Positions 12-21,622 of a stretch of 64,000 bases of DNA are shown piece by piece; position 1 is the stretch's first letter, and every line of letters begins with the position of its first letter. This stretch comes from Minisyncoccota bacterium. GTDB taxonomy: Bacteria; Patescibacteriota; Patescibacteriia; Patescibacteriales; UBA12465. The DNA is taken from contig JAIPJA010000001.1 in NCBI GenBank assembly GCA_021734405.1, positions 1,586 through 65,585 of the forward strand. Reading direction: 5' to 3'. The position numbers and the translations under genes are program-made. The notes beneath the pieces were generated by a model, which was not told the DNA's origin, did not search any database, and saw only the letters and a list, made by a program, of their open reading frames with translations.

Positions 12-2207
12 TTATAATTTAACCATTTTTTTAGATTTTTTTATTTTATAACTTTTAATATTATCTTTTGGTAAATAAAAATAAAAAATAGAACCCTTGT
101 TTTTATCAGGTTTAAATTTTAAATCACCACTATGCGCTCGAGCAATTTCCCTAGCAATATAAAGACCTAGACCAGTGCCATCAACATGTTCTGAGGCTGC
201 GTTTTTTGCTCTAAAAAATTTATTAAATAATTTTTTTCTCTCTTCTTTAGGAATGCCGATACCTTGATCCTTAACATAAAAAAATATTTTTTTAGCTTTA
301 AGCTCTTCATATAAAATCACAGTAGTATTATCAGGAGAATACTTAATTGCATTACCTATTAAATTCTGCCAAATTTGTTTAAACTTACCTTCGTCAGCCA
401 TCACTTCCCTGTCTGGAGATAATCTATTAATTATTTTTATATTTTTTTTATTAATTAAATAAGAATTTTCACTAATAACTGAATTGATGATTTTATCTAA
501 CTTAAAGTTTTCTTTATTAATATTAAATTTTCTGCCCGTATCTATATGGGAAACATCTAATAAATCATCCACTAACTTAATCATACTTAAATTATTTTCC
601 TCTACTTGTTTTAACATTTGTGACTGACGCTTATTTAATTTATTTTTTTTATCATTTAAAATAATACCCGTAAACCAACGAATACTGGTAAGAGGCGTTC
701 TTAGCTGATGAGAGACGATACTAATAAATTCATCTTTTAATTTATCTAATTTTTTTAAATCCTTATTCTGTTCTTCTAGTTTTACAGTAGCTTTTTTGAT
801 TTCTTTTTTCAATTTTAAATTAAATTTTCTAACATTTTCGTAAAGTAAAATATTTTCTAAAGCCACTCTAACTTCAATTCCTACTAAACTTAAAAGTTTT
901 AAATCTTTATTGTTATAAGCTTCTCCAGATTCTTTCTTATTAAAAACTAAAATTGTTATTTTTTTGACTTGTCGAATTTTTATTAATATAAACAATTCAG
1001 TTCCTAAATTATATAAGTACTGACAAGCCTCACAGTTTTTAACGAGTGAAGATTCTAAAAAATCATTTCTAACTAGCAAGGTGTTTTTAGAAACTAGCTT
1101 TTCTAAAGATTGACTATATTTCAATTTCTTAATATTTATTTTCTTAAAATTACTATTATAATCAGAGCTCCAGCTTTTAGTTTCATAATTATAACTTAAA
1201 GCTGCTATGGCCTGAACATGCATATTCCCTTGTAAAAGGGTAATTAGAGCTTTAAACATTTTTTTTATATCTAAAGTAGAATGCAAACGATTATTTATCT
1301 TATAAATCAAATCATCAAAGTCATAAAGGCCGGAAAAAAAATATTTATTAGAAACTCGATAATAGTACTTTTTCAATTTAGGAAAAGCTAAAAGAGCTAG
1401 CACAAATGCTATGGAAAAAACTATAAAAATTAATTGCGGATAAAATTTATATACTAAATATATAGCTAAATAAGAAGGCAAGAAAACTGAAACTAAAGAG
1501 GCTATATAAACTGAATAGCTTCTCATTATAACTTTAATGTTCATTAAACCAAAATATACAATCGCGTAAGTTATAACTACGGAAAATAAAAGCGGAGCTG
1601 CTAAAAACACTGGGTAAACAGAAACTTCATAAGCCGGTAAAAACCCTGTTATACCCAATAAGTTTAAACTGGCAAAGCCTAAAATATAATACAATAAACG
1701 CTTTTTTTCTAAAGCGCTTTGTTCGTCTTTGTATTTCTGTATTAAGGAAATAAAAAAAATCAAAGAATAAAAAACAAAAAAAACAACAAAAAAATGATGA
1801 AAAAATTGAGCCTTAGTATGCGCGCCCCAAGCATAATAAAAAACATCATTTAAAAAATAATTAGTTTGGCTGGCAAATAAAAACAACACCGAGAGTAAAT
1901 AGCCTAAACCTAAAAGAATTTTTCTATAAATACTAGTTTTAGTAATAGCTAAACTAAAATGATATTGCAAGGCAGGCCAAAAAACTATACCTACATATAT
2001 AATCCTATCCCAAAAAATTATTTGTTCTGCTCTATCAGCATTAAACATCATAATCGTGCCAAAAATCCAGACATCTAAAATTATAGTTAAAAGAAAAAAA
2101 AGCCTACTTATTAAGCTACGACTTCTTTTTAAAACAATATAGCCCAAAATAATAATAAAAATCAGGCTTAAAAAAGAAAATATTTGTGCAAATAGATAGT
2201 CAATCAT
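12..2207 (-). CDS. Sensor histidine kinase, multi-pass membrane N-terminus with C-terminal HisKA/HATPase
   Basis: The C-terminal half carries the H-box SHQLRTPLTSIRW and G-box GTGLGLYIAREIARAHSGDL. The N-terminal half has at least 7 hydrophobic segments. Confidence 0.8.
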   Translation of the reverse strand: MIDYLFAQIFSFLSLIFIIILGYIVLKRSRSLISRLFFLLTIILDVWIFGTIMMFNADRAEQIIFWDRIIYVGIVFWPALQYHFSLAITKTSIYRKILLGLGYLLSVLFLFASQTNYFLNDVFYYAWGAHTKAQFFHHFFVVFFVFYSLIFFISLIQKYKDEQSALEKKRLLYYILGFASLNLLGITGFLPAYEVSVYPVFLAAPLLFSVVITYAIVYFGLMNIKVIMRSYSVYIASLVSVFLPSYLAIYLVYKFYPQLIFIVFSIAFVLALLAFPKLKKYYYRVSNKYFFSGLYDFDDLIYKINNRLHSTLDIKKMFKALITLLQGNMHVQAIAALSYNYETKSWSSDYNSNFKKINIKKLKYSQSLEKLVSKNTLLVRNDFLESSLVKNCEACQYLYNLGTELFILIKIRQVKKITILVFNKKESGEAYNNKDLKLLSLVGIEVRVALENILLYENVRKFNLKLKKEIKKATVKLEEQNKDLKKLDKLKDEFISIVSHQLRTPLTSIRWFTGIILNDKKNKLNKRQSQMLKQVEENNLSMIKLVDDLLDVSHIDTGRKFNINKENFKLDKIINSVISENSYLINKKNIKIINRLSPDREVMADEGKFKQIWQNLIGNAIKYSPDNTTVILYEELKAKKIFFYVKDQGIGIPKEERKKLFNKFFRAKNAASEHVDGTGLGLYIAREIARAHSGDLKFKPDKNKGSIFYFYLPKDNIKSYKIKKSKKMVKL

Positions 2208-4721: not shown

Positions 4722-4755
4722 ATCGTTATCTTAATATCTTTTTACTTAAATTATT

Positions 4756-6314: not shown

Positions 6315-7086
6315 CGTATTTTCGAACGGAAAATTCATCGACACGAGAAAAAACCGCTTCATAATTAATAGGTTGCAAATCTTCAGTGCCGATCCATGGT
6401 ACGTCCTTATGGGAATAATCTCGCATTTTTGTTGCGTTAAAATCTTTAAATCTTTCAATTTCCCAATCAATCAGTTCTTTTTCTTGGGCAGAAAATTTCG
6501 ACAATTCAGCGGACCTCAGAGGTAAATATTTTTTTTGATCGTGCTGAAAATATTTCTTAGTTACTCTAACTAATTCTCCGTCTTGTTCCATCTGTGCAAC
6601 AATTTCCGGAAAAGCTACTGGTGTTGGTCCAAAATGATTCTTGATATACTTCGCTCCAATCAGCTGTTCTTCAAATTTTTCATAATAATCAAAGTCAATA
6701 AAGTACATAAGCTTGCACACTACGGCCTCTCCGATATTGGGGCGAGCGCCGATTCTTTCTAGAATATACAAGAGCGTTTCTTTAAATTTTTCAACTTTTT
6801 CCTGTGGCACAGAAATACGTACTTCTGGTTTTTGTGCTTTTGTTTTTTTAGCTTTTTTTAATTCAACTCTTGAAGAAGCTGGGTCTTGCCCGCTAATAAG
6901 CTCTTCAAAAGATAGTTTAAACAAATCACCAATTTTCTGAACTTCAGACAAATTAATCTCCCGCTCGCCTTTTTCTATTTGTATATAGGTCGGGCGCGAC
7001 AAACCAAGCTTACCTGCCATAAATTCCTGTGACAAACCTTTTTGTTCTCTTAGGCTTTTTATTCTTTTATATAAATTTTTAATCAT
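6304..7086 (-). CDS. Antitoxin: XRE-family HTH fused to a DUF4065/Panacea (SocA/GepA-like) domain
   Basis: The N-terminus is an HTH_XRE (LREQKGLSQEFMAGKLGLSRPTYIQIEKGEREI). The C-terminal KLMYFIDFDYYEKFEEQLIGAKYIKNHFGPTPVAFPEIV fits the DUF4065 core pattern (K-L-x-Y-F ... GP-x-P). Confidence 0.6.
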   Translation of the reverse strand: MIKNLYKRIKSLREQKGLSQEFMAGKLGLSRPTYIQIEKGEREINLSEVQKIGDLFKLSFEELISGQDPASSRVELKKAKKTKAQKPEVRISVPQEKVEKFKETLLYILERIGARPNIGEAVVCKLMYFIDFDYYEKFEEQLIGAKYIKNHFGPTPVAFPEIVAQMEQDGELVRVTKKYFQHDQKKYLPLRSAELSKFSAQEKELIDWEIERFKDFNATKMRDYSHKDVPWIGTEDLQPINYEAVFSRVDEFSVRKYDEN

Positions 7087-7099
7087 ATATTTAAAATTT

Positions 7100-7152
7100 T
7101 ACACATACTGAGTGTATATTTTTATTATACCTATGTAAAATATTTTTGTCAA
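7100..7152 (-). promoter_or_regulatory. Sigma70-like promoter (TTGACA-N17-TATAAT) plus operator palindrome for the toxin-antitoxin operon
   Basis: The minus-strand -35 is at 7147-7152 and the -10 at 7124-7129. The inverted repeat TACAC-N7-GTGTA (7100-7116) sits between the -10 and the antitoxin start. Confidence 0.5.
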
Positions 7153-7600
7153 ATAAAATGATAATTATTATTGACATTAATATAATAGTCTAACTTCTCA
7201 AGCAAACTTTTTAAAAGCTCTTCGTCATTAACAAGCGCCAATTCTTGTGTCTTATTTTTAGTAACTCGCCATCAACAAACAGCCTTTTATCTTTTTTAAG
7301 AATGTTTATAGGATCGTTTAATAAATTTTGCCTATTATAATATACTAAAAGTAAAATAATCATATTTTTACCTTATAATAGCCATTTTTTATCAGATTTT
7401 CTTGATTTAAAATTTTATAACTCCAAAAACACCCAATTTCGGAGTTATAAAAATTCATAACTCCATTTTCTGTCGTTTTTGGACATTATGACTATATCCA
7501 ATTACATCCAAAAGTATGCCATTGTGGAGCCAGCCAATCACCACTTTTCACTTATATCACTATAAGCGATTATGTGGGATTATTAGGTAAAAACAAAAAA

Positions 7601-7626
7601 CCCGCTGTATTTAGCGGATTTTTTGG
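7601..7626. terminator. Bidirectional intrinsic terminator
   Basis: Hairpin CCGCT-gtattt-AGCGG is flanked by an A-tract and a T-tract. Confidence 0.5.
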
Positions 7627-7759
7627 TATGTAATCTATAGAGATATATTGTCTTAACGTTTTGACCGTTAAGATGCGCGTCAGGCGTGCTTGAGTGAACG
7701 ATAACTTCTAAAAAATGGGCGTCGTTCGTAATGGAAACGATCGCCCGTTTTGTGTGCGT

Positions 7760-8287: not shown

Positions 8288-9196
8288 TTAAAACGCCATT
8301 TTTTGGCGATATACTTTCTCTAGCTCCGCATCCGCTACGCCCATATAAAACATAGTTGTGTTAAGTTTGGCGTGGCCAAGCATCTTCTGCAAATATCTTG
8401 GATGAACATCATGCTCCACTGCCCTCTTGCCAAATCCATGCCTAAATGAATGAGCTGTCACCTTTTTCTCAATCCCTGCAATTTTTCTCGCTTTCCTAAA
8501 CATTTTCTGAACTGCATCTTTGCCAATACGAGATCCAAACTTTTGATTTGATAAATTAATAAATAATGCACTACTCTTATACAATGCTTTCTTTTCTAGT
8601 TTATTTCTTACTTCGAGCCACTTTTGAAGCAACTCATTGGTTTTCTCATCCCAATATATTTCCCTTTTATGATTTGATCTTTTAAACGTTTTGCATACCG
8701 CTTTCATCTCTTCAAAGTTTAAATCAGCGTAATCTATGCTGATCATCTCACTTAACCTGACACCTGTCGCATATAAAAATGTTAATATTGTTTTATCTCT
8801 TAATTGATCGGGATAAAATTCATCAAATACATCCTGCATCCTTTTAACTTCCTCTTTTAACACAAACGGATAATGCTCTTTATCATCCTGCTTTGGCATA
8901 GGAATAACATCATCGCCAAATTCAACCAATTTCTGCCTATGTAACCACCTCCAGAATGTTCGCAAGCTACAAAAATAACTTGCCTGCGTACTCTTTTTAA
9001 CTTTCCTCATCTCTGTTAAATACAAACCGTATTCAACAAAGTCATGCTCTTTGATGTCTACAACATCCTTCTCGGTGCCATCGCACCAATCAATAAAGAT
9101 TTTAAGCCCCCAACGATAAGATTGTACGGTCTCCGGGGAGTGACCGATTGCCAGCCAATCCAAAAATTGGCCGTACAGTTGTTCATTTTGATTCAT
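8288..9196 (-). CDS. int: Phage tyrosine integrase (XerC/D family)
   Basis: The C-terminal catalytic signature is HSFRHGFGKRAVEHDVHPRYLQKMLGHAKLNTTMFY (R..H-R-H..Y). Confidence 0.85.
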   Translation of the reverse strand: MNQNEQLYGQFLDWLAIGHSPETVQSYRWGLKIFIDWCDGTEKDVVDIKEHDFVEYGLYLTEMRKVKKSTQASYFCSLRTFWRWLHRQKLVEFGDDVIPMPKQDDKEHYPFVLKEEVKRMQDVFDEFYPDQLRDKTILTFLYATGVRLSEMISIDYADLNFEEMKAVCKTFKRSNHKREIYWDEKTNELLQKWLEVRNKLEKKALYKSSALFINLSNQKFGSRIGKDAVQKMFRKARKIAGIEKKVTAHSFRHGFGKRAVEHDVHPRYLQKMLGHAKLNTTMFYMGVADAELEKVYRQKMAF

Positions 9197-9209
9197 AACA
9201 CTTTTTGGT

Positions 9210-10687: not shown

Positions 10688-11596
10688 TTATATTGCATTA
10701 TATGATTGTTCAATTAAATTAAACACATAATTCAAATCACTTTCAGAAGCCAAGACTACTTCTGTAACTCCTCCTCCATAGTGACCGATTCTTGTGACAT
10801 CTCTAGCAATTTTCTTTGGATCGTCTAGTTTGTTTATTGGAACTATCAAATGAAGTTTAATTTGAGATTGTTGAAGATGTAAATACAAGAAAGCTGAACT
10901 AGTCCTATATGAAATATAGTGTTTTTTTGCTCTTTCTTCGATATTATCATTAAGAGATAAAATTTTATCTCTCAAAGAATTAAACAACTCTACAACCCCT
11001 TTATTGATGCCATTTGTATGATCTTCAACAGTATAAACCTTAACCTCCTTGCTCACTTTTTCAATTGTTTTATTTTTTGAAATCTTATTTATTGACTCGC
11101 TCCTCTCCGATGATTTTAACTGTTTGTAAAGAATTGTATCATTGTCATATTTTTCTACTTCCCATAATTCAATTGGTAGATCTTTAAAATTAATTGCATT
11201 TTGTTGATATGTAGTAAATGATTGGGAAACAAAAACAACTCTTGATTGCGACCAATCAACATCACTCTTTTTTAAATTATTTCCAGTTTTTTCATTATAC
11301 TCAAGGATAAAATCAGCCTTATTATTAAGCATCAATGACAAATAAGCAAAGCCTTGATCTACTACGCTGAAATTCTTGTCTCTTTTATACTCAATAATCA
11401 CAAAAGATTTATTTTCTTCATCAAATGCCAATGAATCTATTCTAAAATTATGTAAACTGAATTCAGTGCAAACAAAATTGAGACCAAAAATACATTCCAA
11501 ATTATCTTCAGTTAGTTTTTGCAAATCTTTTTCAAGTTTTATTGTAACTTCTTTTATTGGGTTAAGTTTCCCACTTTTGATATTAAATATTGGCAT
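10688..11596 (-). CDS. Hypothetical protein with an N-terminal PD-(D/E)xK-like (HsdR-N-like) nuclease motif
   Basis: NFRIDSLAFDEENKSFVIIEYKRDKN resembles the D...E-x-K core of restriction-endonuclease-fold / HSDR_N domains. Confidence 0.45.
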   Translation of the reverse strand: MPIFNIKSGKLNPIKEVTIKLEKDLQKLTEDNLECIFGLNFVCTEFSLHNFRIDSLAFDEENKSFVIIEYKRDKNFSVVDQGFAYLSLMLNNKADFILEYNEKTGNNLKKSDVDWSQSRVVFVSQSFTTYQQNAINFKDLPIELWEVEKYDNDTILYKQLKSSERSESINKISKNKTIEKVSKEVKVYTVEDHTNGINKGVVELFNSLRDKILSLNDNIEERAKKHYISYRTSSAFLYLHLQQSQIKLHLIVPINKLDDPKKIARDVTRIGHYGGGVTEVVLASESDLNYVFNLIEQSYNAI

Positions 11597-11891: not shown

Positions 11892-12647
11892 TTATTGATA
11901 ATATTTTTTAACAGTTTTTACATAGCTACAATAATCACAATCATCACCTGACTCTGGAATCTTATCATTTTGCAAACATTTATGAGCCTCGACTATTTTC
12001 CCTTCAACCCAACTATCGCTTCCTTCGTATGGAATTAATGTAATATCAAATTCGAGCTTTGCATCAAATGCTTTTCTGTCTGTTTGGCCATTACAATAAA
12101 CGAAATATCCAGTATTAGAAACTTTGTAGCCATTCTTCCTGAGCAACCACTGATAAATTTCCATTTGTCTTTTATAGCCATCTTGCCAATCTTTATCAAG
12201 TGCCTCAATTTTTTCCGTCTTGCTGGTAGATTTATAATCAACTACGATATACTCCTCTTTTGAATTAATCCATAAATCATCAATCGCTCCAAACATTAAA
12301 AAATTTGTCGGTTCATGCAAGAACTGAACCCCTGTAAAGTTATGTCTCCAAACATCAAGATCTTCATGCTCAACTGGAATCGCATCAACTCCATATTTTT
12401 CTATCAAGGGGTGTTTTTCGTTCTTTAATCTTAAAATATCAAACTCTTTTTTCAATAAAGCATCAACCGCACTATTTAAAGCAAATGGAAATCCGGGCGG
12501 TCTCCCAACTCCCATTTTTCTATCCAAATAAAAACATCTTGGGCAATCAATAAAAAGCTCAAGTTTTGATCGACTTAATTTAAATGGATCCGATGATTTT
12601 GGATCGTAAAGCCCTTTTGTGCGTTGTGAATTATAGTATTGTGACAT
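11892..12647 (-). CDS. Cas4/RecB-like PD-(D/E)xK nuclease with a four-Cys cluster
   Basis: RecB-nuclease motifs are GAIDDLWI (II), IVVDYKST (III) and RQMEIYQW (QhxxY). Cys pairs CPRC at the N-terminus and CDYC at the C-terminus resemble the Cas4 Fe-S arrangement. Confidence 0.6.
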   Translation of the reverse strand: MSQYYNSQRTKGLYDPKSSDPFKLSRSKLELFIDCPRCFYLDRKMGVGRPPGFPFALNSAVDALLKKEFDILRLKNEKHPLIEKYGVDAIPVEHEDLDVWRHNFTGVQFLHEPTNFLMFGAIDDLWINSKEEYIVVDYKSTSKTEKIEALDKDWQDGYKRQMEIYQWLLRKNGYKVSNTGYFVYCNGQTDRKAFDAKLEFDITLIPYEGSDSWVEGKIVEAHKCLQNDKIPESGDDCDYCSYVKTVKKYYQ

Positions 12648-14056: not shown

Positions 14057-15358
14057 TTAGCTAACAGTTATTTGTCCATTCATAAGCATCGGCAAAAGCC
14101 AGTCGCGCAAAGAAGATAATCTTTGATTTTCCTCCAAATTTTTCTGTTTCTTCTCTTCTATTTTTTCCATAAATTCGAAAAAAACATCTAATATTTGATT
14201 ATCAGGAACTACAATATAATTTTTATCTACAAAATTATCAAATAAAAAGTTTTTTATTCCTGAAGTTTTACCTTCGTAGCCAAAAAAAACTTTGCCATCA
14301 TACATCCTGTTCCAAAAATAATAAAAACTATAAATTAACTTACTATTTTTAAGTGTTATTGCTTTACAAAAATTTGAACAAATTAATGGTTTTGAGAATC
14401 TGCCCATTTTCGAATTTGAGATATAAGCAATACGCCCTGTAGATTGAGTTGGACTCCCACCAGATATTTCAATAATCAAATCATAAGGATTTAATATTTT
14501 ATGCGAATTTTTTTCAAGTATAAATCGCCTAGGAGGGTCGCATTGTTCTTTACCATTCAAGCCATTTATATCTGTTCCACGGATGCAAAATACATCTTGA
14601 GTATAATTTCCGGTCTTTTGATCTTTCCCCCAATCACCACTCTTGTCAGCCGATATTAAATCTTTAACCTTCTCAACACTCCATCCTTTGGGAACTTCGG
14701 CAACAAGCTTATTATTCCTATACATTTTACCTCCACTACTTTTATACGGCTTTCCTTGCTTGTTAGGAAACTCGAATTGCACAAACCAGTATTCATAAAA
14801 TGTTTTTGCTATACTATCTAACTTGTCATTTATTTCGTTATTAAGTTTAATTTTGGAATCAATAAACGATAAAATTTCAGCAATTTTTTTTTGATCTTCC
14901 GCTCTTTCAGGCACTTCAAATTTTAAATTACCAATATCTTCTGGCTTAATCGACGGATAAGAAGATGTAGCGTTCATGCCTAGATTATGGAGATATTCAG
15001 TAATTTGCTTTTGTGTTAAAAGGTAATAAATAAATTTGGGATCGATATTTTCATCTACTATATCTATAGTCGTAAATCCAGTTGATACAATTAAATTTTC
15101 ATCTGGATTTTCTAAGTAACCATAATGTTCTTGATTTGGTCTAACTGTCGAATAGATGATTGAGTTATTTTTAACTCGCCTCTTTGCTCTACTAGGTATT
15201 TTATCTTCCTTTGTATCAAGTATTTTCAAATTAACAATACTATTCTTTGTAATATTTCCAGTATCTAGATATTTAATAACATTAAAATTATCATCCTTCC
15301 CTAATGATTTTAAATTAAGATTTGATATTTTACTGATTTGTATAATTCTTCTATTCAT
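14057..15358 (-). CDS. hsdS: Type I restriction-modification specificity subunit
   Basis: It has two target-recognition halves with conserved spacer/C-terminal HsdS blocks (FEVPERAEDQKKIAEIL, RDWLLPMLMNGQITV). It overlaps hsdM by 8 nt. Confidence 0.8.
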   Translation of the reverse strand: MNRRIIQISKISNLNLKSLGKDDNFNVIKYLDTGNITKNSIVNLKILDTKEDKIPSRAKRRVKNNSIIYSTVRPNQEHYGYLENPDENLIVSTGFTTIDIVDENIDPKFIYYLLTQKQITEYLHNLGMNATSSYPSIKPEDIGNLKFEVPERAEDQKKIAEILSFIDSKIKLNNEINDKLDSIAKTFYEYWFVQFEFPNKQGKPYKSSGGKMYRNNKLVAEVPKGWSVEKVKDLISADKSGDWGKDQKTGNYTQDVFCIRGTDINGLNGKEQCDPPRRFILEKNSHKILNPYDLIIEISGGSPTQSTGRIAYISNSKMGRFSKPLICSNFCKAITLKNSKLIYSFYYFWNRMYDGKVFFGYEGKTSGIKNFLFDNFVDKNYIVVPDNQILDVFFEFMEKIEEKKQKNLEENQRLSSLRDWLLPMLMNGQITVS

Positions 15359-16985
15359 ACTTCAAATTATTCAATTTATGCTCAATTTGATCTTCCAATT
15401 GTTTAGATTTATGAAAACATTCTGATAATTCTTTTTTAAAATTATTAATTTTTTCTTCAAATTCTTTTATCGAAATATCAATATGCTCAATATTTATATT
15501 GAAATATTGACCAGTGCTAAAACTATAATTTTTCTCTTTCACCTCATCGAAGCCAACTACGACTGAAAAATTATCGACTTTTTCCTTATTAGTAAAGACT
15601 CTTACAATCTCTTGCTCTTCCTCTAAACTTAATACGGTTTTTTCATTTTTTCCATCAACTTTAATTTTTTCTCCCATTTTAGAAGCATCCATGAATACAA
15701 CTTTTTCATCTATATTTTCCTTATCAATAAATATTACTGAAACATTTGTTCCAGTGGTGGCAAAAATATTACTGGGCATGCTTATCACACCTTTTAGCAT
15801 TTTTCGATCAATTAATTCTTCCCTGATTTTCTTTTCAATTCCGTTTTGTGCTGTTATAAATCCCGTTGGAACAACAACAGCTGATTTACCTTTCTGTGAT
15901 AACGAATAAATAATATGTTGAAGAAATAAAAGATATATTGCCATTGATTGTTTTTTCTTTTTAGGTACAGTTGGTATACCAGCAAAAAACCTCTCACCAT
16001 TCTCCTTGGTATCAATATCCTCTCTCCAATTACTAAAATCCAACTTGAAAGGAGGATTTGAAACAATATAATCAAATTTCATCAATTCCTTTCCTTGCCT
16101 ATGGTAGGGATCTTTTATTGTATTACCTTGGATAATGTTATGAATTGAATGAACTAAATTATTTAAAATAAGATTTAATCGCAAAAGATGTGATGATTTA
16201 TCTGACAAATCCTGCGAATAAATAGTACATTTATCTTCACCAATCGCATGAGCGACGTTCATTAATAAGGTTCCCGAACCTGCTGATGGATCGTATACCG
16301 TAACATTACTCACTGGCTTATCAACCAAAATAGATGCCATAATTTTAGCTATGGCATGGGGTGTGTAATATTCAGCATAAACACCTCCCCCATCTTTATT
16401 ATAATCTTTAATCAAATACTCAAATATCGTTGAAAAGAAATCAAACTTTTGTTCAAAAATATCTTCAAAGTTAACATCAACTAGCTGATTAATTATAGCT
16501 TTTGAAAAATTATCTTTTTGTTTTTCAGAAAAGTTTTTTAAATATTCATCGACGCCATAAAACAACTGAATTTTATTCCCCTCTTCAGTTTTAACCGAAA
16601 ACACGTCATTATTGATTTTTGAAATATCTCTCAATGTATCACTGAAAAGCTTAGCAAACTGTTCACTGTTTTGCTGATTCCATAATGTCGAAATAAAATG
16701 ATCAGGATATAATCTCGCACTATCAGGACTCATTTTTTTAAGCAAAAACTCATAATCACTCTTAGAGTATTTTTTTATTACTTCTTCCCAGTTATCCGCT
16801 TTTTTAAGTTTTGAATCAAGCTCTTTTACTTCATATCCAAATTTGTCATTCATGAACTTATACAAAAAAACTTGGGTGATAATTTTAAATTCATCCCCAC
16901 TATTACCTAATCCATAATCACTACAAATTCCTTTCAGATTATCGATTAACTGTTTAGTTTTTTGAGTAAAATTTTGCTCTACCAT
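15351..16985 (-). CDS. hsdM: Type I RM N6-adenine DNA methyltransferase subunit
   Basis: Motif I is DPSAGSGTLLMN and motif IV is NPPF (YIVSNPPFKLDF). Confidence 0.9.
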   Translation of the reverse strand: MVEQNFTQKTKQLIDNLKGICSDYGLGNSGDEFKIITQVFLYKFMNDKFGYEVKELDSKLKKADNWEEVIKKYSKSDYEFLLKKMSPDSARLYPDHFISTLWNQQNSEQFAKLFSDTLRDISKINNDVFSVKTEEGNKIQLFYGVDEYLKNFSEKQKDNFSKAIINQLVDVNFEDIFEQKFDFFSTIFEYLIKDYNKDGGGVYAEYYTPHAIAKIMASILVDKPVSNVTVYDPSAGSGTLLMNVAHAIGEDKCTIYSQDLSDKSSHLLRLNLILNNLVHSIHNIIQGNTIKDPYHRQGKELMKFDYIVSNPPFKLDFSNWREDIDTKENGERFFAGIPTVPKKKKQSMAIYLLFLQHIIYSLSQKGKSAVVVPTGFITAQNGIEKKIREELIDRKMLKGVISMPSNIFATTGTNVSVIFIDKENIDEKVVFMDASKMGEKIKVDGKNEKTVLSLEEEQEIVRVFTNKEKVDNFSVVVGFDEVKEKNYSFSTGQYFNINIEHIDISIKEFEEKINNFKKELSECFHKSKQLEDQIEHKLNNLKYE

Positions 16986-19978
16986 ACTTTTGTGTTATTA
17001 AAATCGTAAAGATATTCTTGAGTTGCACAATTATTAATTAAATCCGCTGACTTGTTGTCCAATTTAATGCCGTGATTTTCAAAGCTTCCAATCACAATAG
17101 GACTCATGAATTTTATAAAATAATCTTCATTTTGAATCATTCTTGCATTATCTAGGACTTTTTGATCAGCTTGTTTTTTGATATCTGTTAAAGTTTCAAA
17201 AATAGTTATTTCTCTAGCATCAACATTCCTCTCTTCTAAAATTCTTTTATGAATTCTTGCGTATTTTTCATCATTCTCATATTTCGCCTTTAGCTGATTA
17301 TTTCTTCTATTTAGATCCGTAATCGCCTCATATATTTTCTCAAGCTCTTTGATATTAGCACTCATTTCTTCTTGGGTAATTTCATCAAGATTTTTCTTAT
17401 CAAATAATCTTCTCAACTCTTCATATAAAGCCACGAATTCTTTGTCATTTTTATCAAAATTTTTACCCATTTCCTCTCTTGTCTTTTTGAGCGTATTCTT
17501 TAGTTTATCAGCTATAACCATTTCTTCCTCTGATACCTTACGGAAAGTAAATATAACGTCTTCTAACGCAACATTCAAGAGGTTGGTTGTTTCTGAATTA
17601 TTCTCCAAAGAATCCTTTAAATTCACCAAGTTTAAATGATTTTCTGCCTCATTATAAAGCATAGCAAGTTTTTTGAAATCTATTTTATCCAAAAGTTCAT
17701 AATGCCCCATCAAACGAATGATATTATAAAGATTTTTTGCACTCATTAAAGCTTTTTTAATCTCTAAAATTTCTTGCTTATCTTGAATGGCAGATATTTG
17801 TTTAGAAAAATTCTCGGCGTTGACTAAATCAAATCTAAAAAGCCTGTCTTTAATAATTTCAATTTCCGATTCTATTTCTTCTTTAGATAAGAAAATATTT
17901 GAATAAGTCTCCATCTCATCACCAAGTTCGTCTTGCAACTCATCAAAATATGCTTTATTTGTGGCATCAAATTCTTTTCGAATATCGGCAAAATCCACTA
18001 CATATCCAAAATGAAAATCTTTATAAGGTCGGTTTACACGAGTTAATGTTTGTAATAAGTTATGTTTTTTTATAACTCTGCCTAGATATAACTTCTTTAA
18101 CCGCTTAGCATCAAAACCTGTTAAAAGCATATTGTACACAAATAGAAAATCAATCTTACCTTCTTTGAATTGGTCAATTTCATCTTTTCTTTCATCTTTT
18201 GTGCCGATATCATGTAAAATCAAACTCGCTGTTAAATTCTCGCTGTGTTTCTTATTAAATACTTCAAACATTTTTTTTGCCTGATCTGAACTATCACAGA
18301 CCACCAACGCACCAATACTATCATCACCGTACATAATTCTACTTTTATCAAAATCTGCAACAATATAGTCTAACATCGGTTCAACAAATTTTGGATGAGA
18401 ATAAACTTTCCTTTTATCAGCATCACCTTTCAATATTTTTATATCTTTTAATGCTTCTTGTAATTTAATCTTGTAACTAGTTTCAATATCCTCTCTTATT
18501 AATTTTAGAGTATATCCATCAGCTATCGATGAATTATAATAATATTTGTGAATATAGTCACCAAAAATAGCTTTTGAGCTTTTATCTTTACCGATGAGCG
18601 GAGTTCCTGTTAGTCCGATAATTATCGCTTCTCTGTCTGAAGTCATTAAATTAGCAAGAAAGCTTCCTTTTGGATCATAACTTCGGTGTACTTCATCTAG
18701 GAAATAAATTCTTTGAATGTTTGTACTATAAAGTCCGCAGTTTAAAACAGCGGTATCTTCTTTGAATTTTTGGATGTTAACTACAGTAATCTCAAGTTGC
18801 CCCTTTAAATTATGTATATTTTTATTACTCTGAAAATCCTTTAATAACTCATCTTTTGAATTTACAGTATGTACTACCAATCCTCGACTTGAAAATTCTT
18901 TTTTAGCTTGAATCAAAAGATCCAAACGATCAACTATAAAATAAAACTTAGGTATGATTTGTTTTTTCTGAAAATAATCAGTTAAATACTTAACATTATA
19001 ATAAGATAATGCAGTTTTTCCGCTTCCTTGGGTATGCCAAATAATCCCCTTTTTAATACCTTTATCAATTGACTGCTCGATTGCTTTGGTAGCAAAAAAT
19101 TGAGGGTATCTCATTACATGCTTTTGAAGTCCATCATGCTCTTTTACGTATGCGATTGCATATCTCAATAACATTGATAATCTATCTCTGCTAAATAATG
19201 AACTTAAGATTCTGTTAGTTGGTGAATCTATATCCTTGTTAGTTATAAACTCTGGGCTATGTTTTATAACATTTAAATTATTATCTTTTAAAACATAATT
19301 CTCTACTTCTTCGTCTTCTGGTTTTATGATCGAATTAACATCGAGCTTCTCCACTGCCACATCCTCTTTAAAAGCGTTAAATATTGCTCTATTATGTGAA
19401 GTGCTTGAATAATAAGCACCCTCAACCTGACCAATTGATTCCGAATCATACTCCATGTTATTTGAGAAAACAAGGAGTTGAGTAATATTAATAAATTTTC
19501 TAAATTTTTTATTTTGAAAACGAGTATTTATTCTATTCCTTTCAGCGATTATCCCCTCTCTATTGTTTGGCTTTTTTACTTCTATAAATGCCAAAGGCAT
19601 ACCGTTTATTAAAAGCGTGATATCTGGTCGAAATTCCTCATCTCCGTTTTTACAAGTAAGTTCTGTAACGACATGGAGTGAATTGTTATCAAAATTATCA
19701 AAATCTATTAATTTTATTTCATTTGATAGCAACATCTCATAAAACTCCTTTCCTAAGTCCTCATTATCCAAAACCAAAGATATCTTTTCGTATAATTTTT
19801 TTATCTCATCATCTTCAACATCTTTATTTATTGCCTTGATGCTATCAAAAAAAATATCTGTAAAAATATTTGTTTCAACATCCCATTTAGATGTTTTTAG
19901 TGATAAGTATTTATACCCCAATCTACAAAGATGTAATATTGCTGGTATTTTTACCCTTGTATCTTCATTGTAAGCCAT
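16979..19978 (-). CDS. hsdR: Type I restriction enzyme R subunit (endonuclease/helicase)
   Basis: The N-terminal nuclease motif is FRPDITLLINGMPLAFIEVKKPN. The helicase Walker A is HTQGSGKTALS and the DEAH-like box is FLDEVHRS. Size is 999 aa. Confidence 0.9.
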   Translation of the reverse strand: MAYNEDTRVKIPAILHLCRLGYKYLSLKTSKWDVETNIFTDIFFDSIKAINKDVEDDEIKKLYEKISLVLDNEDLGKEFYEMLLSNEIKLIDFDNFDNNSLHVVTELTCKNGDEEFRPDITLLINGMPLAFIEVKKPNNREGIIAERNRINTRFQNKKFRKFINITQLLVFSNNMEYDSESIGQVEGAYYSSTSHNRAIFNAFKEDVAVEKLDVNSIIKPEDEEVENYVLKDNNLNVIKHSPEFITNKDIDSPTNRILSSLFSRDRLSMLLRYAIAYVKEHDGLQKHVMRYPQFFATKAIEQSIDKGIKKGIIWHTQGSGKTALSYYNVKYLTDYFQKKQIIPKFYFIVDRLDLLIQAKKEFSSRGLVVHTVNSKDELLKDFQSNKNIHNLKGQLEITVVNIQKFKEDTAVLNCGLYSTNIQRIYFLDEVHRSYDPKGSFLANLMTSDREAIIIGLTGTPLIGKDKSSKAIFGDYIHKYYYNSSIADGYTLKLIREDIETSYKIKLQEALKDIKILKGDADKRKVYSHPKFVEPMLDYIVADFDKSRIMYGDDSIGALVVCDSSDQAKKMFEVFNKKHSENLTASLILHDIGTKDERKDEIDQFKEGKIDFLFVYNMLLTGFDAKRLKKLYLGRVIKKHNLLQTLTRVNRPYKDFHFGYVVDFADIRKEFDATNKAYFDELQDELGDEMETYSNIFLSKEEIESEIEIIKDRLFRFDLVNAENFSKQISAIQDKQEILEIKKALMSAKNLYNIIRLMGHYELLDKIDFKKLAMLYNEAENHLNLVNLKDSLENNSETTNLLNVALEDVIFTFRKVSEEEMVIADKLKNTLKKTREEMGKNFDKNDKEFVALYEELRRLFDKKNLDEITQEEMSANIKELEKIYEAITDLNRRNNQLKAKYENDEKYARIHKRILEERNVDAREITIFETLTDIKKQADQKVLDNARMIQNEDYFIKFMSPIVIGSFENHGIKLDNKSADLINNCATQEYLYDFNNTKVW

Positions 19979-20033
19979 ATTTATTATTTCTGTTTATTTG
20001 AATTATTTTATTCTTTTCAAATAAAATTGTTAA

Positions 20034-20579
20034 TTATATAACTAAGCTTCCGATTCTAATCATCATTGCTTGTTGACTAACATTATATTTTTTAGCCAAT
20101 TCAGCTATTGTTTTTAAATCATCATCATTATTCTTTATCTTATATTTACCTGATAAATCATTAATCATTTCATTTCTTGGCATCAATAATTCAGCTGCAA
20201 ATTGATTTGCCTGAATTTCTTTTATATTATTTGTATTTGATGTTGCGTTTGCATCTCTAAAATAAACATCAGATGAATCTACATGCATACTGCTGATGTT
20301 GTGCAACATAAAATGCCCAATTTCATGGGCGATTGTAAACCTTTGCCTATGTTCACAATGATCTTCATTTACAACAATAACAGGTTGGCCATCTTTACCT
20401 TTCATCTTTATAGCACCAGAAATTTCATCTTTTGAGAACTTCATCTTAGCTACTTTTATTCCAAGTGATTTTGCCACATCTTCAATTTTTACCGGGTAAC
20501 TATCAATCTCAAGCTTATTCGATATTTTTTCAGCTTCCTTGACGGCTAATTTAATTTTTTGATTAATAAAATTAGACAT
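20034..20579 (-). CDS. ImmA/IrrE-family metallopeptidase (anti-repressor protease)
   Basis: The HEXXH motif is TIAHEIGHFMLH. It pairs with the upstream XRE gene. Confidence 0.8.
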   Translation of the reverse strand: MSNFINQKIKLAVKEAEKISNKLEIDSYPVKIEDVAKSLGIKVAKMKFSKDEISGAIKMKGKDGQPVIVVNEDHCEHRQRFTIAHEIGHFMLHNISSMHVDSSDVYFRDANATSNTNNIKEIQANQFAAELLMPRNEMINDLSGKYKIKNNDDDLKTIAELAKKYNVSQQAMMIRIGSLVI

Positions 20580-20583
20580 ATGT

Positions 20584-20871
20584 TTATATATTATCTAAAT
20601 TCTTAGTATCATCTTTATTTAATAATTTAACATTATTACTAGTATCAATTCCTTTCATTACTTCTGTAATTTTCAAATCTAAAGCCTCTGCAACCAAATA
20701 AAGCTGAAAAGCTGAGATTTGTTGTTTTCCATTTTCTATTGCAGACAATGTGCTTTTATTAATATTTAAACCAGATTCTTTGCTAAATTCATCCAAAGAA
20801 TACCCCTTTTTGGTTCTTTCATCTTTGATTTTTTTCCCTAAATTTAAATAAAAACTTGCTTTATCAAGCAT
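20584..20871 (-). CDS. XRE-family HTH transcriptional repressor (phage cI/ImmR-like)
   Basis: The HTH is KGYSLDEFSKESGLNINKSTLSAIENGKQ. It sits directly upstream of ImmA. Confidence 0.8.
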   Translation of the reverse strand: MLDKASFYLNLGKKIKDERTKKGYSLDEFSKESGLNINKSTLSAIENGKQQISAFQLYLVAEALDLKITEVMKGIDTSNNVKLLNKDDTKNLDNI

Positions 20872-20903
20872 ATATTTTTTTTATCGTAATAATATCTATT
20901 ATT

Positions 20904-20974
20904 AGTATAGTTCAATCAAATATGTTTGTCAATAACAAACAGTGTTGACCTACACAAAACTCTTATGGTAAAAT
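20904..20974. promoter_or_regulatory. Back-to-back divergent sigma70-like promoters (phage genetic switch)
   Basis: On the minus strand, TTGACA (20927-20932) -N17- TATACT (20904-20909) drives the XRE operon. On the plus strand, TTGACC (20945-20950) -N17/18- TAAAAT (20969-20974) drives the small rightward ORF. Confidence 0.5.
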
Positions 20975-20977
20975 AGA

Positions 20978-20997
20978 ATGTGAGCGGTAACTCACAT
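20978..20997. promoter_or_regulatory. Operator-like perfect palindrome ATGTGAG-cggtaa-CTCACAT at the predicted +1 of the rightward promoter
   Basis: The arms are perfect 7-bp inverted repeats. The left arm TGTGAGCGG matches the first 9 nt of lacO1. A related inverted repeat (CCTCACAT-taa-TGTGAGG) recurs at 21254-21271. Confidence 0.45.
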
Positions 20998-21094
20998 CTA
21001 TTTACAGACACGACTTTGACAAGTCAAAGGTCGAGTGCCTTATCAACATATCTAGATTATACCGCTTTTTAAGAAAAATAACAATCGGAAGATT

Positions 21095-21229
21095 ATGTCC
21101 TGCAAAAAACAGCCAAGGCGAACAGCCTACAGGGATTCCGGCACTGGTCAATTCATAACAAAGCGTAAAGCTGAAAGAATGCCCCAGAGAGAAGTTGAAA
21201 AAGAGCGGATTAGAGTTGGAAAAAGATAA
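21095..21229 (+). CDS. Small basic protein (44 aa, MSCKKQPRRTAYRDSGTGQFITKRKAERMPQREVEKERIRVGKR); candidate Cro/Xis-like switch protein
   Basis: It is the only plus-strand gene in the prophage. It has its own promoter/operator and a terminator, with a weak GGAAG ribosome-binding site. The sequence is GC-richer than its surroundings. Confidence 0.35.
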   Translation: MSCKKQPRRTAYRDSGTGQFITKRKAERMPQREVEKERIRVGKR

Positions 21230-21246
21230 AGTCGTGCCTAATCGAC

Positions 21247-21280
21247 AAAAAAACCTCACATTAATGTGAGGTTTTTTTAT
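21247..21280. terminator. Bidirectional intrinsic terminator
   Basis: Hairpin ACCTCACAttaaTGTGAGGT has an A-tract before and a T-tract after. It terminates the plus small ORF and the minus late operon. Confidence 0.6.
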
Positions 21281-21295
21281 ATTATTGGCTATGGC

Positions 21296-21622
21296 TTACT
21301 CAACCAATAATATTTTTGATAAATATTCCTTTATTTCACTACTTCTCCCTCCCAAGCTCCATTGCTTAATTTGCTCTAGGGGAAATCGACTTTTATAATC
21401 ATAAATCGTAAAAACCAAATTCTTGTCATTATTTATTACAAAAGCCCATTCAACTCTTACCTTTTTATCACCTGACTCCCAGTCTCCCGACACAGTACAA
21501 TCATGAGGATCTCCCAACTTTTCTTTTAACTCCTCAAAACTTGAATGAATTGTACCAATCCTACTTGTGCCATTAACCTGCTTGGGGGTTGCGTGTTTAA
21601 TTTTAAAATCTGTTTTTATCAT
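21296..21622 (-). CDS. Hypothetical phage protein
   Basis: ORF sits at the end of the late operon. Confidence 0.4.
   Translation of the reverse strand: MIKTDFKIKHATPKQVNGTSRIGTIHSSFEELKEKLGDPHDCTVSGDWESGDKKVRVEWAFVINNDKNLVFTIYDYKSRFPLEQIKQWSLGGRSSEIKEYLSKILLVE

What the first reader, a model, noticed from the sequence alone, without database searches (positions are those of the whole stretch)
20904..21280. Compact genetic switch with a lac-operator-like palindrome, a structured leader, a 44-aa basic ORF and a terminator on the opposite strand to every other phage gene
Divergent near-consensus promoters sit 12 bp apart. The rightward one is immediately followed by a perfect 7+7 inverted repeat ATGTGAG-N6-CTCACAT. 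Its left arm TGTGAGCGG equals the start of lacO1.

The same half-sites recur swapped in the downstream terminator stem (CCTCACAT-taa-TGTGAGG). A leader hairpin lies around 21008-21035.

A 9-nt sequence CACGACTTT (21010-21018) is perfectly complementary to AAAGTCGTG (21228-21236), just past the ORF stop. It could enclose the whole 44-aa ORF in a long-range stem.

The ORF encodes a very basic peptide and the region is GC-enriched. This is probably the Cro/Xis-like arm of the switch, with an unusual RNA-level layer.
Basis: seen in the sequence. Interest (0 to 1): 0.6.

Follow-up and report, generated by a model that had tools for sequence, protein, structure and literature searches.

The report
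Repressor-controlled small gene with structured leader
This is the control region of a repressor/protease (XRE–ImmA) switch on a mobile element of an ultra-small (CPR/Patescibacteria) bacterium; its only divergent target is a real 44-amino-acid gene of a widespread, unstudied family, sitting behind a conserved folded leader that carries an inward-facing promoter.

Summary

**The ORF.** It is a real gene. Among three lineages, codon positions 1/2/3 are 77/82/30% invariant. It belongs to an unannotated small-protein family of at least 150 members. The AlphaFold model has strands and one short helix, no helix-turn-helix, and no structural match, so it is not Cro- or Xis-like by fold.

**The module.** ImmA←XRE<>small gene recurs in about 11 metagenomic lineages of CPR bacteria. 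It is usually followed by a type I restriction-modification (R-M) operon, and sometimes sits next to phage lysis genes or a serine recombinase.

**The leader (20975-21070).** It is more conserved than the ORF. It contains:
- the operator-like palindrome, whose two arms change together and track changes in the XRE helix-turn-helix region;
- a hairpin and a 7-8 bp closing helix followed by a U-run, both with compensatory changes;
- a convergent promoter (TTGNNN-16/17-TATAAT), conserved wherever it could be read, that would make a ~80-nt two-hairpin countertranscript.

**Rejected.** The lacO resemblance and the "operator" half-sites in the terminator are coincidental. The 5'-3' complementarity is retained but shows no covariation.

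**Verdict.** A new variant of ImmR/ImmA (CapH/CapP)-type switches with a probable antisense/attenuation layer. The small protein's function is unknown.

The parts
20034..20579 (-). ImmA/IrrE-type (M78) Zn-metallopeptidase gene, 181 aa, HEIGH motif
   Evidence: Pfam Peptidase_M78 3e-23. PADLOC capP 5.5e-34. The translation shows FTIAHEIGH.
20584..20871 (-). XRE-family helix-turn-helix repressor gene, 95 aa
   Evidence: Pfam HTH_3 3e-12. PHROG transcriptional repressor families. PADLOC capH 5e-7 and R-M control protein 3e-5.
20904..20932 (-). Leftward promoter P_L for XRE-ImmA (TTGACA-17-TATACT)
   Evidence: TTGACA-17-TAnnnT is found in 10 of 11 lineages.
20924..20940 (.). Second palindrome IR2, GTTTGT-N5-ACAAAC, overlapping the -35 box of P_L
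   Evidence: Unique in the window at 0 mismatches. Perfect in L011 and L033, and 4-5 of 6 positions kept in L001, L005 and L034. No function has been tested.
20945..20974 (+). Rightward promoter P_R (TTGACC-18-TAAAAT with TG extension)
   Evidence: The scan finds it in 10 of 11 lineages as TTGAC[C/T]-16..18-TA[A/T]AAT; the L033 box is TAATAT in the alignment.
20969..21004 (.). Inverted repeat IR1. The perfect core is ATGTGAG-N6-CTCACAT at 20978-20997, about -3 to +17 of P_R. It is the presumed XRE operator, and on the minus strand a terminator-like hairpin.
   Evidence: Both arms change together to ATGTGG/CCACAT in L029/L031; L049/L051 keep a 4-5 bp GTGG/CCAC core. The switch tracks XRE helix-turn-helix changes (SG..NK to AN..SK). 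The minus-strand terminator-like site was flagged.
20982..20989 (+). 5' arm of leader-closing helix P1 (GAGCGGUA). It overlaps the left arm and loop of IR1.
   Evidence: MFE folds. Compensatory G-C to A-U in L029/L031/L049. In the L053 sequence printed, read by eye, AGUGGU can pair with ACCACU (C-G to U-A); the MFE fold does not form this helix. G.U in L051.
21007..21039 (+). Conserved leader hairpin H2 with the near-invariant AGGUCGA segment. It forms at least as well in the minus-strand RNA.
   Evidence: There are 4 pairs with changes on both sides. Most sense-strand mismatches are A.C, which become G.U in the antisense RNA.
21056..21084 (-). Convergent promoter P_as inside the leader (TTGTTA-17-TATAAT)
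   Evidence: TTGNNN-16/17-TATAAT (TACTAT in L053) is found by the scan in 10 of 11 lineages, 77-86 nt from the P_R -10 box; in L033 it is readable in the alignment. The -35 TTG is invariant within an otherwise 36%-invariant block.
20966..21050 (-). Predicted ~80-nt countertranscript: two stem-loops plus a U-rich tail
   Evidence: -26.3 kcal/mol, z = -4.63, against -22.0, z = -3.0 for the sense strand. The antisense strand is more stable in 7 of 8 homologues. RNAalifold gives -19.7 antisense against -13.1 sense.
21060..21070 (+). 3' arm of P1 (UACCGCUU) running into a U5 tract; a possible attenuator
   Evidence: A U-tract follows the P1 3' arm in the homologous leaders (UUUUU, UUUCUU, AUUUUAAU; 8 nt downstream in L053).
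21095..21229 (+). Gene for a 44-aa basic protein of an uncharacterised family (motif T-x-YRDSGTGQF[IV][TS]K ... EKERI)
   Evidence: Codon-position invariance 77/82/30%. Homologues. AF2 pLDDT 83.
21231..21238 (+). Invariant 3'-UTR element GUCGUGCC, complementary to the 5' arm of H2 (21007-21014)
   Evidence: GTCGTGC is invariant in the 9 aligned sequences and present in 10 of the 11 regions scanned, absent only from L051, whose small ORF is unrelated. The duplex is at most 5% likely against shuffles in 8 of 10 lineages. No covariation.
21247..21278 (.). Bidirectional intrinsic terminator shared with the convergent phage late operon
   Evidence: The stem is kept with compensatory changes in homologues.

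Best explanation
The region is the control core of an ImmR/ImmA-type (equivalently CapH/CapP-type) switch carried on a mobile element of a Patescibacteria (CPR) genome.

**Proposed mechanism**
1. P_L makes the XRE repressor and the ImmA metalloprotease. In this window the type I R-M genes follow on the same strand.
2. The XRE dimer binds the 20-bp palindrome that covers +1 of the near-consensus P_R and keeps it off.
3. A damage-type signal lets ImmA cleave XRE.
4. P_R then fires a monocistronic, terminator-bounded mRNA whose only product is a conserved 44-aa basic protein.
5. Output is gated a second time in the ~115-nt leader.
   - The sense RNA can fold into one long hairpin, closed by helix P1 and followed by a U-run. 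This looks like an attenuator.
   - A conserved convergent promoter P_as, about 70 nt downstream of the P_R start, would produce a two-hairpin countertranscript and/or interfere with P_R by collision.
   - The P1 5' arm overlaps the palindrome hairpin, so the two folds are alternatives.

**Status of each step**
- Shown by computation: the gene content, selection on the ORF, conservation of the three promoters, and covariation in the leader helices.
- Inferred: XRE-operator binding, ImmA cleavage, activity of P_as, termination at the U-run, and the role of the protein.

The protein's role is most likely to relay derepression, as an antirepressor-like, recombination-directionality or restriction-modulating factor.
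For: **Gene content.** HTH_3 and Peptidase_M78. capP 5.5e-34 and capH 5e-7.

**Module conservation.** ImmA<-XRE<>small gene, with a 215-224 nt spacing, occurs in every close homologue whose contig reaches that side.

**Operator.** The palindrome is unique in the window. It sits at about -3 to +17 of P_R. Both arms change together in one clade (partly 86), and this tracks XRE helix 2/3 residue changes.

**ORF.** Coding signature 77/82/30%. At least 150 family members.

**Leader.**
- Blocks 20975-20999 and 21046-21070 are 92% invariant, against 30-41% at neutral-like sites.
- The structure count shows 5 pairs and 9 cells changed on both sides. No shuffle of 500 reaches the observed covariation score, and slid controls give 0-1.
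- P1 is compensated at one pair in L029/L031/L049. A second compensated pair in L053 rests on reading the sequence by eye and is not recovered by its MFE fold.

**P_as.** Found by the scan in 10 of 11 lineages at fixed geometry and readable in the L033 alignment.

**Countertranscript.** Fold z = -4.6. A minus-strand terminator-like site was flagged. The L011 T-to-C change gives C.A in the sense strand but U.G in the antisense strand.

**Cassette behaviour.** In L051 the same leader and promoters drive an unrelated 48-aa basic ORF.
Against: - There is no experimental or transcript evidence. The transcription start sites are only predicted.
- Only about 11 related sequences in 6-7 lineages exist, so the covariation counts are few and phylogenetically clustered.
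- P1 has an uncompensated A.C in L033.
- The 121-nt leader alone does not fold better than shuffles (z = -0.54).
- P1 closes a ~70-nt structured insert, which is unusual for an intrinsic terminator.
- Strand assignment is mixed. H2 and the palindrome pair better on the antisense strand, while P1 can only form in the sense RNA. The antisense strand is also U-rich, which by itself favours lower folding energies.
- No second copy of the operator exists near any phage early promoter in the window. How derepression would reach the phage genes is therefore unexplained.
- The small protein has no informative homologue or fold match.
Confidence: 0.55

Rival explanations
1. DNA-only reading. The conserved leader is a set of protein-binding sites (operators for XRE or another factor) plus promoters. 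The apparent helices are just symmetric operators, and there is no RNA-level regulation.
For: IR1 and H2 are DNA palindromes, and the IR1 arms co-vary with the XRE helix-turn-helix region. The leader alone folds no better than shuffles. Few independent lineages are available.
Against: The P1 arms lie 70 nt apart, which is not an operator geometry, and one P1 pair is clearly compensated in one clade, with a G.U intermediate in L051 and a possible second compensated pair read by eye in L053. The H2 stem sequence is replaced wholesale in L029/L031/L049 yet still pairs. The mismatches are strand-asymmetric (A.C against G.U), which DNA recognition does not predict.
Confidence: 0.2
2. The 44-aa protein is the Cro- or Xis-like partner: a DNA-binding counter-repressor or a recombination directionality factor.
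For: It sits in the Cro/Xis position, opposite the repressor. In L001 it lies directly upstream of a large serine recombinase on the same strand, and in L048-50 it is next to one. Distant family members lie near integrases in L023, L035-38, L039 and L041.
Against: No helix-turn-helix or winged helix is present; the model is strand-strand-helix-strand with no PDB or BFVD match. In the window, L033 and L029 no recombinase is adjacent. The terminator is kept between the ORF and the integrase even in L001. In L051 the ORF is swapped for an unrelated one.
Confidence: 0.2
3. Defence-regulator reading. XRE-ImmA is a CapH/CapP-type damage sensor for the adjacent type I R-M and defence island. The small protein is a damage-induced modulator of restriction, working like the restriction-alleviation proteins Ral and Lar.
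For: ImmA matches capP at 5.5e-34. A type I R-M operon follows ImmA in the window, L033, L029-32, L048-50 and L051. PDC-S18 and a Cas4-like nuclease lie further downstream. L051 has the module and R-M with no phage, next to the same rpsI locus.
Against: In the described CapH/CapP systems the regulated operon is the divergent one (10.1101/2022.04.27.489752), whereas here R-M is co-directional. L001 keeps the small gene with no R-M. L051 keeps R-M with a different small ORF. Most distant family members are not near R-M.
Confidence: 0.2
4. Chance or non-functional reading. The ORF and the complementarities are fortuitous features of an intergenic spacer between the repressor operon and the phage late operon.
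For: The 9-nt complement occurs in 7% of shuffles, and the 7-mer recurrence in 3.4%.
Against: The codon-position pattern, at least 150 homologues, the conserved synteny and the conserved promoters all exclude it.
Confidence: 0.02

Closest known systems
ImmR/ImmA switches of ICEBs1 and phage phi105 (Bacillus subtilis), and IrrE/DdrO of Deinococcus
   Same: An XRE-family repressor gene is adjacent to an M78/COG2856 metalloprotease gene. A divergent target promoter carries the operator. In ICEBs1 the first divergent gene is a small basic protein (Xis). This rests on my own knowledge; the relationship is summarised in 10.1101/2022.04.27.489752.
   Different: Here the divergent unit is monocistronic and terminator-bounded. 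It has a long conserved structured leader with an internal convergent promoter. The small protein has no excisionase fold. The host is a CPR bacterium.
CapH/CapP regulators of CBASS and other defence operons (Lau et al., bioRxiv 10.1101/2022.04.27.489752; PMC13228613)
   Same: The best profile hit for the protease is capP, 5.5e-34. The pair is a helix-turn-helix protein plus an M78 peptidase next to defence genes. The operator lies in the shared promoter region.
   Different: In CapH/CapP systems the defence operon is on the opposite strand. Here the R-M operon is downstream on the same strand, and the divergent target is a 44-aa gene.
Phage TF-smORF induction modules (Silpe et al. 2023, PMC10432266)
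   Same: A helix-turn-helix regulator is divergently paired with an unannotated 50-60-aa ORF lacking homologues or domains, sometimes beside late genes. The small protein relays the decision by inactivating cI.
   Different: There the transcription factor activates the smORF, and a separate cI repressor is the target. Here the promoter is near-consensus with an operator over +1, which implies repression. An ImmA protease is present. No separate cI was found.
Countertranscript control of leaders: pIP501 CopR/RNAIII and pT181 RNAI attenuation, P22 sar, and RnaG-icsA (PMC2879508)
   Same: A small helix-turn-helix repressor acts at the sense promoter. A convergent promoter lies inside the leader. 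The antisense RNA is short and forms two hairpins. A terminator-like fold sits in the sense leader upstream of the ORF.
   Different: Those systems control plasmid replication, an antirepressor or a virulence gene. None is coupled to an ImmA protease. Here the antisense RNA would cover the 5' arm of the closing helix, so the sign of regulation is unclear.
lacO1 / LacI operator
   Same: A shared 9-mer, TGTGAGCGG, and a position just downstream of the -10 box.
   Different: The lacO half-sites abut a central base; here they are separated by 6 bp. No LacI/GalR-type domain was found in any of the window ORFs scanned. The arms drift to TGTGG in relatives. The resemblance is coincidental.

Membership tests
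ImmR/ImmA (CapH/CapP) repressor-protease module | XRE-family helix-turn-helix repressor gene | tested here: met
   HTH_3 3e-12; capH 5e-7
ImmR/ImmA (CapH/CapP) repressor-protease module | Adjacent M78/COG2856 Zn-metallopeptidase with an HExxH motif | tested here: met
   Peptidase_M78 3e-23; capP 5.5e-34; HEIGH in the translation
ImmR/ImmA (CapH/CapP) repressor-protease module | Repressor binds an operator at the divergent promoter | tested here: inconclusive
   A unique palindrome lies over +1 of P_R. Its arms co-vary with XRE helix-turn-helix residues.
ImmR/ImmA (CapH/CapP) repressor-protease module | Signal-dependent cleavage of the repressor by the protease | not testable with these tools
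   Needs biochemistry
Cro / Xis (excisionase) proteins | Helix-turn-helix or winged-helix DNA-binding fold, or a match to Cro/Xis profiles | tested here: not met
   No Pfam, NCBIfam or PHROG hit. The AF2 model has strands plus one 6-residue helix. No fold match better than E 0.19.
LacI-type operator | Abutting symmetric half-sites and a cognate LacI/GalR regulator | tested here: not met
   The half-sites are 6 bp apart. The neighbouring genes are XRE, ImmA and HsdR. The arms are not conserved as lacO-like in L029, L049 or L051.
cis-antisense (countertranscript) controlled leader | Promoter on the opposite strand inside the leader | tested here: met
   TTGTTA-17-TATAAT. Found by the scan in 10 of 11 lineages at fixed distance and readable in the L033 alignment. 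This is in silico only.
cis-antisense (countertranscript) controlled leader | Short structured antisense RNA with its own terminator | tested here: inconclusive
   Two stem-loops, z = -4.6. Terminator-like site on the minus strand, but its U-tract is interrupted and paired. No transcript data.
cis-antisense (countertranscript) controlled leader | Attenuator or other responsive fold in the sense leader | tested here: inconclusive
   P1 plus U5 is conserved with compensations, but it closes a 70-nt insert and has one uncompensated break in L033.
Known Rfam RNA family | Covariance-model match to the leader | tested here: not met
   The only matches are terminator-driven and below the gathering score, all at 21187-21343. 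Nothing matches the leader.
Phage TF-smORF induction module | Helix-turn-helix regulator divergently paired with an orphan small ORF | tested here: met
Phage TF-smORF induction module | The small protein inactivates the phage master repressor | not testable with these tools
   Needs genetics or biochemistry

The most novel reading that the evidence does not exclude
A previously undescribed three-layer switch, conserved in mobile elements of CPR bacteria. An ssDNA/damage-sensing protease-repressor pair, a convergent-promoter countertranscript and an attenuator-like leader together gate one swappable small-protein payload. The payload here is the founding characterisable member of a widespread (at least 150 members, many phyla), MGE-borne mini-protein family with a new fold. 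It would act as the diffusible effector, for example by switching off restriction or the repressor after DNA damage.
Probability: 0.25. Interest if true: 0.7.

Novelty: new variant of a known kind. Interest (0 to 1): 0.5.

Why it matters
- Almost nothing is known about gene regulation, lysogeny control or defence regulation in CPR/Patescibacteria. This is a compact cassette, conserved across lineages, that could be tested in a heterologous host.
- It links a well-known sensor pair (XRE + ImmA/CapP) to an antisense/attenuation layer not described for that pair.
- It gives a genomic handle on an unannotated small-protein family spread across phyla and phages.
- If the small protein modulates type I restriction or repressor activity, it would add a new class of small mobile-element effectors.

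Tried and rejected
**Searches that found nothing useful**
- Rfam at a relaxed threshold: only terminator-driven sub-threshold hits, nothing on the leader.
- Pfam, NCBIfam, PHROGs and PADLOC for the 44-aa protein: no hit.
- PDB sequence search: only spurious antibody-framework matches to "YADSVKGRFTISRDNA".
- blastn of the region against 50,697 phage records: no match.
- IMG/VR pattern scans for the leader: none, or one chance hit, L006.
- The metagenome pattern scan returned 14 loci, of which only L011 and L016 are real relatives.

**Ideas rejected**
- The terminator as a second operator: its half-site identity is not conserved.
- The lacO analogy: the half-site spacing is wrong and there is no LacI.
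- A 15-codon ORF at the 5' end of the putative antisense RNA: its ATG is not conserved in L029 or L033.
- An AT-rich palindrome over the P_L start (20882-20909): not conserved.
- A GUCG...CGAC hairpin in the 3' UTR: the CGAC is not conserved.
- A second copy of either palindrome, of the leader or of the small gene elsewhere in the window: none.
Full report
**1. The observation**

The region was read directly and scanned.
- A leftward promoter (TTGACA-17-TATACT, 20932-20904) and a rightward promoter (TTGACC-18-TAAAAT with a TG extension, 20945-20974) have -35 boxes 12 bp apart.
- Three bases after the rightward -10 box lies the perfect inverted repeat ATGTGAG-N6-CTCACAT (20978-20997). It is unique in the 64-kb window even with three mismatches; 0.01 matches are expected by chance.
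- The 44-codon ORF (21095-21229) encodes a protein of pI 11.3.
- A strong bidirectional terminator follows (21247-21278).
- GC rises to 0.42-0.47 across the ORF, against 0.13-0.32 in the upstream flank (20500-20900).
- The 9-mer CACGACTTT is at 21009-21017, one base left of the stated coordinates. It is perfectly complementary to 21228-21236. Such a match occurs in 7% of shuffles, and the recurrence of the operator 7-mer in the terminator in 3.4%.

So every feature is real, but the two "echoes" are not significant on their own.

**2. The ORF is a real gene of an unannotated family**

- Four close homologues (73-86% identity) were found first. An exhaustive HMMER scan then found remote ones. 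A profile search found at least 150 proteins of 37-93 aa sharing T-x-YRDSGTGQF[IV][TS]K...EKER[IV].
- Among three independent lineages, codon positions 1, 2 and 3 are 77%, 82% and 30% invariant. This is a clear coding signature.
- There is no model for the family in Pfam, NCBIfam, PHROGs or PADLOC. One member is mislabelled "multidrug transporter".
- AlphaFold2 with a 75-sequence alignment gives a confident mini-fold (pLDDT 83): strand 8-14, short strand 20-21, helix 23-28, strand 34-40. There is no helix-turn-helix.
- Foldseek finds nothing better than E 0.19 in PDB or BFVD.
- It is therefore not Cro- or Xis-like by sequence or by fold.

**3. Context**

Left of the switch lie:
- the XRE gene (HTH_3) and an ImmA/M78 peptidase gene with HEIGH. 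The peptidase matches the PADLOC capP model at 5.5e-34;
- a complete type I R-M operon, hsdR/M/S;
- two ORFs with no family hit, a Cas4-like nuclease, the candidate defence gene PDC-S18 and two more ORFs without an informative match;
- a tyrosine recombinase.

Right of the shared terminator, on the minus strand, lie phage genes: lysin, tail tube, capsid, protease, portal, terminase and a ParB-methylase. The host ribosomal genes follow from 44374. No integrase lies between 21.3 and 43.9 kb.

The closest named relatives are Candidatus Falkowbacteria, a Parcubacteria bacterium and a Patescibacteria bacterium. The host is therefore a CPR bacterium. This fits the short RpoA and AlaRS, and the S4-RpoA-L17-L13-S9 synteny with L051.

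**4. The module recurs**

In every close homologue whose contig reaches that side, the small gene is divergent from XRE-ImmA at 215-224 nt. What flanks the module varies:

| Loci | Flanking genes |
|---|---|
| Window, L033; L034 and L003 (lysis side only) | Type I R-M on one side, phage lysis genes on the other |
| L029-32 | R-M plus Abi, Shedu-like and SLFN genes, and a reverse transcriptase |
| L048-50 | A serine recombinase, with R-M |
| L001 | A serine recombinase directly downstream, and phage lysis genes instead of R-M |
| L051/52 | R-M beside host rpsI/EamA, with no phage |

In L051 the promoters and leader are conserved, but the payload is an unrelated 48-aa basic ORF. The unit therefore behaves as a regulatory cassette.

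Distant family members are also on mobile elements:
- some next to M78/XRE genes (L022, L023, L024, L035-38);
- others next to an OLD nuclease, conjugation genes, integrases or phage structural genes.

**5. The leader is the most constrained part**

- Among three lineages, 20975-20999 and 21046-21070 are 92% invariant.
- Third codon positions, the P_L region and 21071-21094 are only 30-41% invariant. No Shine-Dalgarno sequence is conserved.
- Adding L029, L031, L033, L034, L049, L051 and L053 gave about 11 sequences.

Three things emerge.

(a) *The palindrome.* It is kept, and both arms change together to ATGTGG/CCACAT in L029 and L031; L049 and L051 of the same clade keep only a 4-5 bp GTGG/CCAC core. 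That clade also carries different XRE helix 2/3 residues: FS..SG..NK becomes FI..AN..SK. This fits an XRE operator placed at about -3 to +17 of a near-consensus promoter, which implies repression.

(b) *RNA helices with compensatory changes.*
- Hairpin H2 (21007-39) has four pairs changed on both sides. Its stem sequence is replaced entirely in L029, L031 and L049, yet it still pairs.
- A closing helix P1 (20982-89 with 21060-67) turns almost the whole leader into one long hairpin followed by a U-run in nearly every homologue.
- P1 shows G-C to A-U in L029, L031 and L049, a G.U in L051, and one uncompensated A.C in L033. In L053 a C-G to U-A change can be read from the sequence, but the MFE fold of that leader does not form P1.
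- On the 8-sequence alignment, 5 pairs and 9 cells changed on both sides. No shuffle of 500 reached the observed covariation score, and slid controls gave 0-1.
- The P1 5' arm overlaps the palindrome's left arm and loop, so the two folds are mutually exclusive.

(c) *A third promoter.*
- TTGTTA-17-TATAAT on the minus strand (21084-21056) faces P_R.
- Its -10 box is invariant (TACTAT in L053). A TTG is kept at 16-17 nt inside an otherwise variable block.
- The scan finds it in 10 of 11 lineages, 77-86 nt from the P_R -10 box. In L033, where the scan could not anchor on P_R, TTGCGA-17-TATAAT is readable in the alignment.

Transcription from this promoter would give an RNA complementary to the first ~70 nt of the leader.
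- It folds into two stem-loops (-26.3 kcal/mol, z = -4.63).
- The second stem-loop is the extended palindrome followed by a U-rich tail, which the scan flags as terminator-like.
- The antisense strand folds more stably than the sense strand in 7 of 8 homologues and in RNAalifold (-19.7 against -13.1).
- Most sense-strand mismatches in H2 and the palindrome are A.C, which are G.U on the antisense strand. One example is the T-to-C change in L011.
- The antisense strand is U-rich, which inflates this effect, so strand assignment remains tentative.

No Rfam family matches the leader.

**6.

- Only the 6-8-nt core survives in relatives: leader GAC[A/G][C/U]G[A/G]C with the 3'-UTR GUCGUGCC. The TTT/AAA extension does not.
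- Variation on the 5' side is tolerated through G.U pairs. No pair changes on both sides.
- GUCGUGC is nevertheless invariant in every lineage that has this ORF family, within indel-rich flanks. It is absent from L051, where the ORF is replaced.
- The predicted duplex beats shuffles at p of 0.05 or less in 8 of 10 lineages, most strongly in the divergent L053 at -20.7 kcal/mol.
- The full-length MFE and centroid folds use this pairing (z = -3.3).
- It competes with the local 3' arm of H2.

I rate it plausible but unproven.

**7. What was rejected**

- The terminator as a second operator. In relatives its stems read CTCACTA, CTCACTG or CTCATT while the operator arms are unchanged.
- The lacO likeness: a shared 9-mer, different half-site spacing and no LacI.
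- A second copy of either palindrome, the leader or the small gene in the window.

**8. Mechanism**

Best supported:
- This is an ImmR/ImmA (CapH/CapP)-type switch.
- XRE holds P_R off through the +1 palindrome, and ImmA relieves repression.
- P_R makes a monocistronic mRNA for the 44-aa protein.
- The leader adds a second gate, built from the P1/U-run fold, the alternative palindrome hairpin, and the convergent promoter with its countertranscript.

The logic resembles CopR/RNAIII control in pIP501, sar in P22, or RnaG-icsA (PMC2879508).

What the protein does is not known. The positional analogues are:
- ICEBs1 Xis;
- the orphan smORF antirepressors of phage TF-smORF modules (PMC10432266);
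- given the R-M linkage, restriction-alleviation proteins.

None of these could be tested here.

**9. Novelty and score**

- The sensor pair and the divergent-promoter layout are known.
- The conserved structured leader with an internal convergent promoter, the swappable small-ORF payload, the CPR host and the unannotated protein family are new.
- I file it as a new variant of a known kind, with interest 0.5.

Noticed in passing
window 9189-9203 and 43947-43961: A 15-nt exact direct repeat, TGATTCATAACACTT (blastn-short E 0.008). It brackets a 34.8-kb segment holding the phage structural genes, the switch, the type I R-M operon and the other defence genes. The left copy overlaps the start codon of the tyrosine recombinase gene (8288-9196). 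These are candidate att sites.
   Followed up: partly
window 10688-11596 and 11892-12647: The first ORF matches the candidate defence protein PDC-S18 at 3e-121 (it also carries DUF5655). The neighbouring ORF is a Cas4-like PD-(D/E)XK nuclease. Together with the type I R-M operon (14057-19978) this looks like a defence island riding in or next to the prophage.
   Followed up: partly
L051/L052 3337-3483 (minus strand): The same promoters and leader drive an unrelated 48-aa basic ORF (MVNKKNSVRTSKSVAKTASEALTNK...) in place of the YRDSGTGQF family member, and the GUCGUGCC 3'-UTR element is lost with it. This is a payload swap within a conserved regulatory cassette.
   Followed up: partly
window 44374-48161 and 48756-50528: The host genes look CPR-like: RpoA of 261 aa with no match to a C-terminal domain, AlaRS of only 590 aa, and S11 with a ~120-aa N-terminal extension. 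The order S13-S11-S4-RpoA-L17-L13-S9 matches the S4-to-S9 stretch held for the Patescibacteria contig L051.
   Followed up: partly
window 20872-20895, 20580-20600, 21071-21094: No recognisable Shine-Dalgarno sequence lies upstream of the XRE, ImmA or small-protein start codons. The stretch before the small ORF is the least conserved part of the leader. This suggests SD-independent initiation in this host.
   Followed up: no
window 6304-7086: An HTH_3 + SocA/Panacea-domain protein (antitoxin-like) lies just outside the candidate element. A 673-nt gap (7087-7759) follows it, in which no ORF of 90 aa or more was listed.
   Followed up: no
window 40016-41263: A ParB-N-terminal domain fused to an N6/N4 DNA methylase in the phage early/packaging region. 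This may be a phage self-protection methylase, relevant to the co-resident type I R-M operon.
   Followed up: no
L024 1976-3067 and L035-38 4239-5309: In distant lineages the small-protein family sits beside an M78 peptidase plus a 'Beta_protein' (PF14350) gene pair. This is a recurrent trio whose function was not looked into.
   Followed up: no
window 20005-20033 (minus strand): A promoter-like site, TTAACA-17-TAAAAT, lies in the 55-nt gap between ImmA and hsdR. The R-M genes may therefore also have their own promoter rather than relying only on P_L.
   Followed up: no
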